Assembly (NCBI GenBank): GCA_019058315.1
Contig: JAHPZH010000006.1
Coordinates: 32,001-96,000 of the forward strand
Source: Candidatus Helarchaeota archaeon
GTDB taxonomy: Archaea; Asgardarchaeota; Lokiarchaeia; Helarchaeales; RDOG01
Reading direction: 5' to 3'
Length of the DNA: 64,000 nt
Shown here piece by piece: positions 31,997-49,550 of this stretch. The position numbers and the translations under genes are program-made. Numbering within the stretch: position 1 is the stretch's first letter; every line of letters starts with the position of its first letter. Under the pieces are notes generated by a model. The model was not told where the DNA came from, ran no database searches, and saw only the letters and a list, made by a program, of their open reading frames with translations.

Positions 31997-32925
31997 ATGG
32001 AAATAATTTTTTTAGGAACATCAGGGACAGTTCCAACTGTTTCACGCAGTTTGCCTGCAATAATAATAAAAAGAGAAAATGATTTTTTGCTTTTTGATTG
32101 CGGTGAAAAAAACTAATTAATTGTAGTTTTCACTAAGGCACACAACTTCAATTTAGGAAAGCAAAAATCAGTTTTTTTAAAATTAATAAGATTTTTCTTT
32201 CACATTTACATGGCGATCATATTACTGGGTTACCTGGTCTAATTATGTCATTAGCTTTAGGTAAAAGAGAGAAAACTCTTACAATTTATGGACCTAATGG
32301 GATTAAAGGATTTATAAATAAAGTTATTGATACAATGCATTTTGATTTAACTTATCCTTTAGAAATAGTTGAAATAGCTGGAGAAGAAAATTTTGAATTT
32401 TTAAATTATAAAATTACTTGTTTTCCTTTAGAACATAGGATATTTACCTTAGGATATGTTATTGTAGAAAAACCAAAGGCAAAATTCGATGTTGAAAAGG
32501 CGAAGTCATTAAAAATTCCAAAAGGTCCTTTATGGGGAAAATTGAAATCAGGTGAAAGTATTCATTTAAATAATGGGAGAGTTATCCAACCTTCCCAAGT
32601 TTTAGGAAATATAAAACCTGGAAAAAAAATTTTATATTGCACAGATACTCGTCCTACAATTAAGACAAAAAATTTAAGCAAGAACGCAGATTTACTCATT
32701 CATGATGGTATGTTTGAAGAGAATCTAAAAGAGTTCGCTACAATTGGAGGACATTCAACAGTAGTTGAAGCCGCAGAACTGGCTAAAGATTCGAAAGTAA
32801 AAAAATTAATCTTATTCCATATAAGTTCTAGATATGAAAATAATAATTCTATTTTAGAACTTCAAGCAAAAAAAATTTTTCCTAATTCATTCATAGCTGA
32901 AGATTTTATGAGAATTTTAGTTTAA
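31997..32925 (+). CDS. rnz: Ribonuclease Z, intron-containing (exon1 31997..32107, exon2 32137..32925; 299 aa)
   Basis: [14 protein letters not shown]...LFDCGE|GTQ...SHLHGDH..G, exosite GPLWG, CTDT, HST, HIS. The ORF track finds only the C-terminal part. Confidence 0.93.
32108..32136 (+). other. 29-nt BHB mRNA intron in rnz
   Basis: TGC-GGTG-AA^A-AAAACTA-attaattg-TAGTTTT-CACT-AA^G-GCA; in-frame TAA. Confidence 0.92.
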
Positions 32926-47398: not shown

Positions 47399-49550
47399 TT
47401 AAAAAAAATCGGCTTTTGGTATTTCAGCTTTTCTACCTTTTTTTATACGAATGTCTGAAATTATTTTTTGAGCGCTATCATAGGAAATAAATTCCCAATG
47501 AGAAAAAACTGTTTGCCAGAATGCTTGTCCTGCAGTTTTTGAACGAATATCAGTAGATAGATTAAATGATTCTTTAACTGGAATTAGACCAGTAATGTAT
47601 GAATAAGAATCTTTTTGTTCAATATTTAGAATTTTGCTTTTCCTTTGTAATAATAAAGCTGTAATAACTCCTATTAGATTTGTAGGAACTTGGATTTGAA
47701 TCTTATAAATTGGCTCAAAAATAGTAGGTTCTGATTTTAAAAAAGCGCTGTAAACCGCTCTTTTACCCATTAACATAATTTGAAGCGGATCGACTTCTAA
47801 AGTATTTTTATCAATTTTTAATAAATGGATATTTATTTGCAATCCTTTTATTGGTTCTTCGCATAAAGGTCCTGCATTTAGAGCCATTTTAATACCCTTT
47901 ATAATAATTTCTTTGATTTTATCATCAATTTCTTGGCTTAAATCATTAATAATTAGATTATTATTGTAATCTATTGCTAGAATCTTCTTATGTTTTAAAA
48001 TTTCTTTAATTCTTTCTTCGTTTATTGGTTCTACTGAAAGTTTGATTTGATTCAAATTATTTTGACTTAAAGTTGAAATTATTGGGCTCTTTATTTTAAT
48101 TCCTTCTCTGTAGACTACAATTGGATCGGACATTAATATGTCAATCCCAAAATCTTTTATTTCATTAGCAATGATTTCTAGATGTAATTGTCCGATTCCA
48201 GAAATCAAATATTCCCCTGTATCTTCATTAATATCGATTTTTATATCGGGATCGTTTATTTTTATTTTATTTAAAATATCTAGCATTTTAGGTAATTCCT
48301 TTGGATGTTTGGGTTCAATAGAAACTGTTATAACAGGATCTGATACATATTTGATATTTTCAAATGGGTCAATTATTTCTTTAAACTCACTATTAGTTAA
48401 TGTTTCTCCAACTATTGCCTCTGAGAGGCCTATAAAAGCTCCAATATTACCTGCTGTAAGAGAATTAACAATTTCTCTTTTATGTCCCATTGAAATGAAA
48501 ATTTTTAAAACTCGATTAATGTCTTTCGCAGTTAATAAATAGACTTCATCACCTGAATTAATGGTTCCAGAAAATATACGTCCTATTGATATTTTTCCTA
48601 CATGTTTGTCAAATAATATCTTATGAATACAAATAATTAATGGTCCATTTTCATTACATTTTTGCATATTTTGTGCTAAAGCTGAATTTAAATCGCCTTT
48701 CCAAATTTTTTTAATTCTATAAGTTTGTGCAATTTTAGGACTTGGCAAATGATTAATTATCATATTTAATATACATTTATCTAAAGGTAGAATTTCACTT
48801 AATATCTCAATTTTGTTTATTCCATTTTTATAATAATTAAAAATATTATCAAACTTTAGTTTCTTATTTTTCATGATATTTAATGTAAAACCCCAACTAG
48901 GATATAAAGCGCATCCAAATCCTACATTATTCATTTCTGGAATTATTTTCCATTTATCTTTAAATTCATTTTCAGCATAAAGTTCAATATAATCGTTAAA
49001 TTTATCTATAATATTTTGAAAATAATTTTGAATTTCATTAGAGTTTAATTTTAATTCTTTTATTAAACGATCAACTTTATTTATATACAGAATTGGTTTT
49101 ATACGTTCTTGCAAAGCTTGTTTTGTTACAATTTCTGTCTGAATTTGGCATCCTTCAACTGCATCTACAACTACAATGGCACCATCAATTGCTCTTAACG
49201 CTCTAGATACTCTGGCAGTTAAATCCACTTAGTCTATAAAAATAATTTTATTTTTATATATGACCTGGAGTATCTATCAGATTAATAATGAATCTCTCAT
49301 TAGCTATTTGATACAATAATGAAATATTTGCAGTCTTAACTGTAATTCCTCTTTTTTGTTCAATATCTAAATAATCCAGAGCCCGAAGAGAACCTGCTAA
49401 ATTTGAAGATATTACTTTCCCTAATGCTAAAAGGCTATCAGTTAAAGTAGTCTTTCCATGGTCTATATGCGCTATTATACCAATATTGCGTATGTTGTCC
49501 TTTTGTTTCATTGTTTCTAAAATTTCATTAATTTTTTTTGATTTTACCAT
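47399..49550 (-). CDS. fusA: Elongation factor 2 homolog, intron-containing (exon1 49550..49260, exon2 49228..47399; 706 aa)
   Basis: AHIDHGKTT, RGIT, spliced DTPGH|VD, NKVD, GQLHLE, EPIY; diphthamide HRG motif absent. Confidence 0.92.
49229..49259 (-). other. 31-nt BHB mRNA intron in EF-2
   Basis: Minus strand CCA-GGTC-AT^A-TATAAAAATA-aaat-TATTTTTATA-GACT-AA^G-TGG; in-frame TAA. Confidence 0.93.

What the first reader, a model, noticed from the sequence alone, without database searches (positions are those of the whole stretch)
49222..49268. EF-2 is split in its G3 motif by a 31-nt BHB intron
The ORF track shows 98-aa and 609-aa fragments. Excision at the BHB cut sites joins CAT|GTG to give DTPGHVD and a 706-aa protein. 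The intron has a perfect 10-bp inner stem. A translation factor whose synthesis requires EndA-type splicing would link tRNA splicing capacity to elongation (inference).
Basis: seen in the sequence. Interest (0 to 1): 0.88.

Follow-up and report, generated by a model that had tools for sequence, protein, structure and literature searches.

The report
tRNA-type intron in EF-2 paralogue
A 31-base insert that breaks an elongation-factor-2-like GTPase gene of an Asgard (Helarchaeota-type) archaeon has the exact shape of the introns that archaea cut out of tRNAs. It is very probably spliced out of the messenger RNA, which published work shows inside the coding sequence of only one other archaeal gene (cbf5).

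Summary
On the minus strand a 97-codon exon (49550-49260, ending DTPGH) and a 609-codon exon (49228-47399, starting VDLTAR) are separated by 31 nt (49259-49229). These fold into a textbook hBHBh' motif. Cutting after the second base of each bulge joins CAU|GUG and restores the G3 motif DTPGHVD and a 706-aa protein.

The insert is real DNA: contigs from another study bridge it without gaps. Inserts of 28-33 nt, unrelated in sequence, occupy the same nucleotide position in 12 distinct homologues, with covarying pairs. The exon codons that form the outer helix are fixed in every intron-bearing gene and in none of 59 intronless ones. Both exons are under purifying selection. The genome encodes two EndA subunits and RtcB.

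One correction: the gene is not the bona fide EF-2. It lacks both domain-IV tip loops and so is the aEF-2p paralogue. The true aEF-2 lies on another contig and is uninterrupted, so the proposed link between tRNA splicing and elongation is not warranted here.

Spliced RNA was not seen for this organism. This scan has already reported the same kind of intron in EF-2 and EF-1alpha genes of other Asgard genomes. In the papers I could search it is unpublished.

The parts
49260..49550 (-). Exon 1 of the aEF-2p gene (97 codons: G1 AHIDHGKT, switch-I RGIT, G3 DTPGH)
   Evidence: Pfam GTP_EFTU profile positions 2-79 and TIGR00490 positions 2-96. dN/dS against the 85%-identical homologue is 0.04/0.60.
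49229..49259 (-). 31-nt BHB intron (mRNA sense A-UAUAAAAAUA-AAAU-UAUUUUUAUA-GACU-AA), with an in-frame UAA two codons in
   Evidence: Unique in the genome. Present in independent DNA contigs.
47399..49228 (-). Exon 2 (609 codons plus stop): rest of the G domain (NKVD) and domains II-V
   Evidence: Pfam GTP_EFTU resumes at profile position 81, followed by D2, EFG_III, EFG_IV and EFG_C. dN/dS is 0.075/0.43.
49266..49269 (-). Outer helix, 5' strand UCCA (exon 1; codons ACU CCA)
   Evidence: Pairs with 49224-49227. Invariant in all 12 intron-bearing homologues. The codon combination is found in 0 of 59 intronless homologues.
49262..49265 (-). Central 4-bp helix, 5' strand GGUC (exon 1)
   Evidence: The third pair is U-A in 7 sequences and C-G in 4 (compensatory).
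49259..49261 (-). 5' bulge AU|A; predicted cut after 49260
   Evidence: Canonical position, after the second bulge base. Gives exon 1 ending in ...CAU.
49235..49258 (-). Inner hairpin: 10-bp stem (49258-49249 with 49244-49235) and loop AAAU (49248-49245)
   Evidence: The only substitution seen in independent contigs (49248) lies in the loop.
49231..49234 (-). Central helix, 3' strand GACU (intron)
   Evidence: GACU, GACC, GAUC, GAUU or GGCU in homologues, always pairing.
49228..49230 (-). 3' bulge AA|G; predicted cut after 49229
   Evidence: Gives exon 2 starting with GUG, so the junction is CAU|GUG = His-Val.
49224..49227 (-). Outer helix, 3' strand UGGA (exon 2; codons G-UG GA-U)

Best explanation
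The 31 nt at 49259-49229 are a bulge-helix-bulge (tRNA-type) intron in the pre-mRNA of an EF-2 family paralogue (aEF-2p).

Shown by sequence and comparison: the last 10 nt of exon 1 (UCCA-GGUC-AU), the intron, and nt 1-5 of exon 2 (G-UGGA) fold into a canonical hBHBh' motif.

Inferred, not shown: the two-subunit splicing endonuclease encoded on contigs C12 and C1 cuts after the second base of each 3-nt bulge. RtcB (contig C5) then joins the exons to CAU|GUG, and the 31-nt intron is released, probably as a circle. The spliced mRNA encodes a 706-aa GTPase with an intact G3 motif, DTPGHVD. Unspliced mRNA can only yield a 98-aa fragment, because a UAA lies two codons into the intron.

The intron most likely has no function of its own. 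It looks like a tolerated insertion at a site where the codons for T-P-G-H/V-D can supply half of the BHB. It persists because a broad-specificity endonuclease removes it, and it now constrains the synonymous sites of the flanking codons.
For: (1) Geometry. The motif has a 4-bp outer helix, a 4-bp central helix, two 3-nt bulges and a 10-bp inner stem, and it is the MFE fold. The canonical cut sites exactly restore the frame and DTPGHVD. Pfam GTP_EFTU runs through profile position 79 in exon 1 and resumes at 81 in exon 2.

(2) Real DNA. Contigs of three runs from an independent study bridge the insert with 0 gaps at about 98% identity. The single change within it lies in the loop.

(3) Conservation of shape, not sequence. 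Twelve distinct inserts of 28-33 nt lie at the identical position, in Helarchaeota-type aEF-2p genes (66-85% and about 46% aa identity) and in Jord/Frey-type canonical EF-2. Eleven of the 12 have all four central pairs. In the alignment, 93.6% of cells pair, against 82.3 +/- 2.1 in shuffles (0 of 500 reach it) and 21-49% when the partner columns are slid. Five pairs change on both sides, including U-A to C-G in the central helix.

(4) Exon synonymous sites. ACT CCA GGY CAY | GTG GAT is found in every intron-bearing gene and in 0 of 59 intronless homologues, which use all four bases at these positions.

(5) Not a pseudogene. dN/dS is 0.07 for exon 1 and 0.17 for exon 2 against the 85% homologue.

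(6) Machinery. There are two EndA genes. One is closest to the chain B of A. pernix EndA, which I recall to be the catalytic alpha subunit (3p1z_B, E = 4e-45). RtcB scores 582 bits. Many tRNA genes carry introns.

(7) Same genome. The rrp41 gene is split by a 32-nt BHB insert, with RNase_PH profile positions 1-59 and 64-129 on either side. The rnz gene is split by a 29-nt insert whose removal restores LFDCGEGTQ.

(8) Homologous site in a Jord-type EF-2. Contigs from sister runs are identical over 11.9 kb apart from 2 SNPs and the exact absence of the 31-nt insert, giving CAT|GTG.
Against: No RNA data exist for this organism, so excision and ligation are inferred. The intron-less contig of point (8) could come from RNA or from an intron-less allele; I could not learn the run type. 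Exon 2 starts with GTG, a possible start codon, and public annotations call two ORFs. The 12 sequences fall into about three lineages, so the covariation and codon counts overstate independence. Three of the 12 (L147, L250, L313) were found with a DNA pattern that already required the exon codons.
Confidence: 0.85

Rival explanations
1. It is a split gene. Two polypeptides (98 aa and 609 aa, the second started at GTG 49228) are made separately and assemble into a GTPase, with no RNA splicing.
For: GTG at the first exon-2 codon can start translation. Gene callers annotate two ORFs in all public homologues.
Against: This does not explain the conserved BHB with covariation or the fixed synonymous sites. 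The break lies inside G3/switch II. No Shine-Dalgarno-like sequence precedes the GTG. The equivalent inserts at other sites of the gene (RRG|ITIK in family f19, HV-D in f20) leave no start codon for the downstream piece.
Confidence: 0.05
2. The BHB is cut by EndA but the exons are not rejoined, so cleavage serves mRNA decay or down-regulation of a dispensable paralogue.
For: Yeast TSEN cleaves mRNAs without ligation (PMC10485636). aEF-2p is a paralogue of unknown role.
Against: Both exons are under purifying selection in frames that only make sense when joined. RtcB is present. A homologous gene exists as an exactly joined form.
Confidence: 0.04
3. It is a decaying pseudogene of a redundant paralogue, inactivated by a hairpin insertion.
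For: The paralogue evolves fast (about 46% identity to the same-family genome G001). A bona fide aEF-2 exists elsewhere in the genome.
Against: dN/dS is 0.07-0.17. Both exons are intact in at least 8 lineages, while the insert keeps its shape and position.
Confidence: 0.03
4. It is translational bypassing or recoding: ribosomes hop over the 31 nt, in the manner of T4 gene 60.
For: There is a stop codon shortly after the take-off codon and a hairpin. In three homologues the insert ends in CAU, matching the take-off codon.
Against: In the window, in G001 and in the Jord-type genes no matching landing codon precedes GUG (UAA, CAA, UAG). The conserved feature is the BHB, not a codon pair.
Confidence: 0.02
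5. It is an assembly or sequencing artefact.
For: None beyond the broken frame.
Against: Contigs from an independent study carry it, and so do homologues in many assemblies.
Confidence: 0.01

Closest known systems
BHB intron in the cbf5 pre-mRNA of Crenarchaeota (Watanabe 2002; Yokobori 2009, PMC2738675)
   Same: A short BHB intron inside a protein-coding sequence. [quoted passage not shown] It shows patchy presence and absence among relatives.
   Different: The gene differs (EF-2 family paralogue) and so does the lineage (Asgard, Helarchaeota-type). The motif here is strict hBHBh', whereas the cbf5 motif is described as relaxed (PMC10485636). Splicing is shown experimentally for cbf5 but not here. 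Here the exon codons of a universally conserved GTPase motif form the outer helix.
Archaeal tRNA/rRNA BHB introns and the intron-rich tRNA genes of Asgard archaea (bioRxiv 10.64898/2026.10.13.758758)
   Same: Same motif, same size class, same presumed enzymes, and repeated gains in intron-rich Asgard classes.
   Different: The host is an mRNA. That preprint does not mention protein-coding hosts.
HVO_1309 mRNA of Haloferax volcanii (PMC7714728)
   Same: An mRNA substrate of archaeal EndA.
   Different: That BHB lies in the 5' UTR, not in the coding sequence, and the enzyme is an alpha2-type EndA.
aEF-2p, the EF-2 paralogue of dph-lacking Asgard archaea and Korarchaeota (Narrowe 2018, PMC6143161)
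   Same: The host gene has the five EF-2 domains and intact G motifs but has lost both domain-IV tip loops. It coexists with a His-retaining aEF-2 in a genome in which no Dph2 was found.
   Different: That paper does not describe introns. (Speculation, not checked: two Altiarchaeales EF-2 fragments that it set aside as possible misassemblies may be such a split gene.)

Membership tests
Archaeal BHB (EndA-type) intron | Two 3-nt bulges on opposite strands separated by a 4-bp helix | tested here: met
   GGUC/GACU flanked by AU|A and AA|G.
Archaeal BHB (EndA-type) intron | Flanking helices h and h' (strict hBHBh') | tested here: met
   The outer helix is UCCA/UGGA (4 bp) and the inner stem is 10 bp. 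This is the MFE fold of the 49-mer.
Archaeal BHB (EndA-type) intron | Cuts after the second bulge base yield a functional joined product | tested here: met
   CAU|GUG restores DTPGHVD and the frame. Pfam profile positions 79 and 81 abut.
Archaeal BHB (EndA-type) intron | Structure conserved, with compensatory change, among homologues | tested here: met
   93.6% of cells paired, 0 of 500 shuffles reach this, and 5 pairs change on both sides. See also for the exon synonymous sites.
Archaeal BHB (EndA-type) intron | Host encodes a splicing endonuclease and an RtcB-type ligase | tested here: met
   PF01974 twice (103 and 78 bits) and PF01139 once (582 bits).
Archaeal BHB (EndA-type) intron | Excision and exon ligation observed in RNA | not testable with these tools
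   No RNA run is listed for this DNA. For the Jord-type homologue, a contig with the exact deletion exists but its run type is unknown to me.
Bona fide archaeal EF-2 (TIGR00490 equivalog) | Score above the curated cut-off of 738 bits | tested here: inconclusive
   The exons scored separately give 545 and 112 bits. The spliced protein could not be submitted.
Bona fide archaeal EF-2 (TIGR00490 equivalog) | Domain-IV loops SPxKHN and HxDxxHRG, with the diphthamide-site His | tested here: not met
   The window gene reads SQNNLN and IDKNTLEVD. The C5 copy keeps HEDPTH.
aEF-2p paralogue (Narrowe 2018) | EF-2 domain architecture with G motifs intact but both domain-IV loops lost | tested here: met
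   G1 AHIDHGKT, G3 DTPGH and G4 NKVD are read.
aEF-2p paralogue (Narrowe 2018) | Coexists with a His-retaining aEF-2 in a genome lacking dph genes | tested here: met
   The C5 copy is P0123. PF01866 was not found in a 94%-complete genome. The tree places the window gene in the loop-less clade with 100/100 support.
cbf5 mRNA intron family | The host gene is cbf5 | tested here: not met
   The host is an EF-2 family GTPase. It works like the cbf5 intron but is not a member of that family.

The most novel reading that the evidence does not exclude
EndA/RtcB splicing of mRNAs may be a routine part of gene expression in several Asgard lineages. EF-2 family genes would be a hot spot, with at least four distinct insertion sites within about 35 codons. 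Inserts lie at the very same nucleotide in two deeply diverged EF-2 lineages (Helarchaeales aEF-2p and Jord/Frey canonical EF-2). That points to repeated, structure-targeted intron gain where exon codons already supply half a BHB, for example by reversal of the endonuclease/ligase reaction followed by reverse transcription, rather than to one ancient intron.
Probability: 0.2. Interest if true: 0.9.

Novelty: new member of a known kind. Interest (0 to 1): 0.66.

Why it matters
In the papers I could search, an EndA-type intron inside an archaeal coding sequence is established only for cbf5 of Crenarchaeota, and a 5'-UTR case exists in Haloferax (PMC10485636, PMC7714728). A strict BHB intron in a conserved GTPase motif of an Asgard gene adds to this, as do further cases in the same genome (rrp41, rnz) and other insertion sites in EF-2 genes of other Asgard families. 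Together they suggest that protein-dependent mRNA splicing is more common in the closest prokaryotic relatives of eukaryotes than the literature says.

There is also a practical consequence. Public annotations of these MAGs report two fragments ('GTP-binding protein', 'elongation factor EF-2' of 613-636 aa). This distorts marker-gene sets, completeness estimates and EF-2 phylogenies.

Tried and rejected
- No RNA holder is listed for this stretch, so expression and splicing could not be examined. Contigs of the probable source run X1 did not span the site; only those of the independent study did.
- A loose DNA pattern for the exon context with a 20-45 nt gap was scanned in genome contigs and metagenome contigs. 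Only L147, L250 and L313 were real.
- A genome-wide scan for BHB geometry combined with ORF merging showed no excess over frame-shifted controls at loose settings. I therefore cannot give a count of mRNA introns in this genome. At strict settings EF-2p and rrp41 stand out.
- Two further candidates, C11:748086-748117 and C11:422918-422945, were not supported by Pfam: the domains on the two sides are unrelated.
- A 'longer' search with exon 1 found no fused or unsplit close relative; the best hit was 69% identical.
- Rfam has no family at the site. The consensus scan found no terminator-like site, and promoter-like sites were no more frequent than in shuffles. The intron is not a repeat.
- A literature search for the run accessions of the intron-less Jord-type contig found nothing.
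- I considered and rejected translational bypassing, a two-piece protein, a pseudogene and an artefact (see the rival explanations).

Full report
**What is there.** The region lies in a 5.79-Mb, 12-contig genome with about 30% G+C (window = G000:C6:32001-96000). Its closest protein matches are labelled Candidatus Helarchaeota, an Asgard group. On the minus strand a 97-codon ORF (49550-49260) ends in ...FIINLIDTPGH. After 31 nt, a 609-codon frame (49228-47399) begins with VDLTARVSRALRAIDG. Exon 1 matches Pfam GTP_EFTU profile positions 2-79. Exon 2 resumes at position 81 and continues through EF-G domains II-V. The two pieces are therefore one gene cut inside the G3 motif.

**Shape of the insert.** Read on the mRNA strand, the sequence is UCCA-GGUC-AU|A-[10-bp stem, loop AAAU]-GACU-AA|G-UGGA. 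This is a 4-bp outer helix, a 4-bp central helix flanked on opposite strands by two 3-nt bulges, and a perfect 10-bp inner stem. It is the canonical hBHBh' motif and the minimum-free-energy fold of the 49-nt segment, at -11.5 kcal/mol. Cutting after the second base of each bulge, the canonical EndA positions (my knowledge of the motif; Marck and Grosjean 2003, cited in PMC7714728), removes exactly 49259-49229. It joins CAU|GUG and gives DTPGHVD and a 706-aa protein. Motifs at least this strict occur only 32 times in 11.6 Mb of strand.

**It is real DNA.** Contigs from three runs of a different study bridge the site with no gaps at about 98% identity. The only substitution inside the insert (49248) falls in the hairpin loop. 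The insert is unique in the genome and matches no Rfam family.

**Comparative evidence.** The closest homologues in public data are all annotated as a fragment of about 98 aa plus one of 613-636 aa. At the identical nucleotide position they carry inserts of 28-33 nt.
- The Helarchaeota-type group at 66-85% aa identity shares the stem sequence but differs in loops and in the central-helix partner (GACU, GACC, GAUC, GAUU).
- The same-family genome G001 and two metagenomic relatives have unrelated insert sequences.
- A G+C-rich Jordarchaeia/Freyarchaeia-type group has GGCC/GGCU with GC-rich hairpins.

On the alignment of 12 distinct sequences, 93.6% of cells pair, against 82.3 +/- 2.1 in shuffles (0 of 500 reach the observed value) and 21-49% when the partner columns are slid. 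Five pairs change on both sides, including U-A to C-G in the central helix.

Independently, the exon codons that build the outer helix are ACT CCA GGY CAY | GTG GAT in every intron-bearing gene. None of 59 intronless homologues has this combination, and those use all four bases at these synonymous sites.

Two caveats apply. The 12 sequences represent about three lineages. Three of them were found with a pattern that required these codons; the other nine were found by protein similarity.

**The gene is alive.** Against the 85%-identical homologue, dN/dS is 0.04/0.60 for exon 1 and 0.075/0.43 for exon 2. The intron stems are unchanged across homologues whose synonymous divergence reaches about 1.2.

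**Machinery and context.**
- The genome has two splicing-endonuclease genes, each with N- and C-terminal EndA domains. One is closest to chain B of A. pernix EndA, which I recall to be the catalytic alpha subunit (3p1z_B, E = 4e-45). The other is more divergent. This fits the (alpha-beta)2 type reported for Asgard archaea (PMC5829648).
- RtcB is present.
- ARAGORN calls introns in 18 of 42 tRNA genes.
- In the same genome, rrp41 is split by a 32-nt BHB insert with RNase_PH profile positions 1-59 and 64-129 on either side. In this window, rnz is split at 32108-32136 by a 29-nt BHB insert whose removal restores LFDCGEGTQ.

**Which EF-2 is it?** The genome has two EF-2 family genes. The window gene has lost both domain-IV tip loops (SQNNLN and IDKNTLEVD). 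The copy on C5 keeps TEGHNK and HEDPTHTRFG, including the diphthamide-site His, and is one open frame. No Dph2 was found in this 94%-complete genome. By the criteria of Narrowe et al. 2018 (PMC6143161) the window gene is aEF-2p and the C5 gene is the bona fide aEF-2. A maximum-likelihood tree puts the window gene with the loop-less 'type 1' genes of its order (100/100) and the C5 gene in a separate, well-supported His-retaining clade.

**Distribution.** Among GTDB representatives, the site-A intron is present only in the window's family (G000, G001). It is absent from the two other families of the order and from all sampled Lokiarchaeia. It recurs in Jord/Frey-type canonical single-copy EF-2 genes but not in Freyarchaeum-like genomes (G157, G160).

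Other sites in the same gene region carry BHB inserts in other lineages:
- EQ|KRG, 40-41 nt, in two Helarchaeota-type MAGs.
- RRG|ITIK, 30-31 nt, central helix GAGG/CCUC or GGGG/CCCC, in family f19.
- A site 4 nt downstream of site A, 29 nt, ACGU/GCGU, restoring HVDFTG, in family f20.

Parallel gain at a site whose codons can form half a BHB seems more economical than one ancient intron with many losses. I did not test this formally.

**A joined form at the homologous site.** Logan contigs from SRR28530378 and SRR28530382 carry the 31-nt intron in a Jord-type EF-2. A contig from SRR28530379 is identical over 11.9 kb apart from 2 SNPs and the exact absence of those 31 nt, reading CAT|GTG. I could not determine whether that run is RNA (spliced transcripts) or DNA (an intron-less allele). 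Either way the unit that is missing is bounded precisely by the BHB cut sites. An earlier follow-up in this scan states that RNA-derived contigs lack the EF-2 intron exactly in a Candidatus Jordarchaeum. I treat that as a lead that I have only partly checked.

**Literature.** In the library searched, EndA-dependent splicing within an archaeal coding sequence is described only for cbf5, and a 5'-UTR BHB for HVO_1309. A 2026 preprint on Asgard tRNA introns does not mention mRNAs. No paper on BHB introns in Asgard protein genes was found.

**Verdict.** This is a genuine, conserved BHB intron in the aEF-2p gene. Splicing is very probable (0.85) but was not observed for this organism. It is a new member of a known kind, and one of several such cases that this scan has already reported in translation-factor genes of other Asgard genomes.

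Noticed in passing
window 32108-32136 (+): A 29-nt BHB insert lies in the RNase Z (rnz) gene. Its geometry is outer helix 3 bp, central helix GGUG/CACU and inner stem 7 bp. Removing it restores ...LFDCGEGTQLQF... and merges 51 and 262 codons. Exon 2 matches Lactamase_B_2.
   Followed up: partly
G000:C10:138945-138976 (-), locus L348: A 32-nt BHB insert splits rrp41. The RNase_PH profile runs 1-59 in the upstream piece and 64-129 in the downstream piece.
   Followed up: yes
L037:about 1325-1365 and L038 (Helarchaeota-type MAGs GCA_054383535.1, GCA_054384095.1): A second BHB insert of 40-41 nt lies in the same aEF-2p gene, between EQ and KRG (central helix GAAC/GUUC, inner stem 10-12 bp). It is absent from the window's gene.
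   Followed up: partly
L071-L081 (family f19, 8 genomes read) and L048/L049/L051 (family f20): In f19, loop-less EF-2 family genes carry a 30-31 nt BHB insert at RRG|ITIK, with compensatory GAGG/CCUC and GGGG/CCCC central helices. In f20, the canonical single-copy EF-2 carries a 29-nt insert 4 nt downstream of the window's site. Neither has an outer helix (relaxed motifs).
   Followed up: partly
L354/L355/L356 (Logan contigs of SRR28530378, SRR28530379 and SRR28530382): In the Jord-type organism the intron-bearing EF-2 gene lies within a few kb of an EndA gene, a LigT-like 2'-5' RNA ligase/phosphoesterase gene and the CCA-adding enzyme gene. This is an RNA-processing neighbourhood.
   Followed up: no
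L147 (NJEG01000044.1, labelled Candidatus Altiarchaeales archaeon ex4484_2): This contig carries a Jord-type EF-2 with a 29-nt site-A intron, so it is probably misbinned. Narrowe 2018 set aside two Altiarchaeales EF-2 fragments as possible misassemblies; these may be such a split gene (not checked).
   Followed up: no
G000 whole genome: No Dph2 (PF01866) match was found in a 94%-complete genome. This fits the dph-lacking Asgard pattern, in which aEF-2 and aEF-2p occur together.
   Followed up: partly
G000, e.g. C6:220058 (+), C11:341697 (-), C3:1186270 (-), C5:710883 (+) (scan positions on the named strand, not contig coordinates): Strict BHB motifs (outer helix at least 4 bp, inner stem at least 8 bp) lie a few codons upstream of long open frames of 230-835 codons. 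They could be introns near the 5' ends of genes or in 5' UTRs.
   Followed up: no
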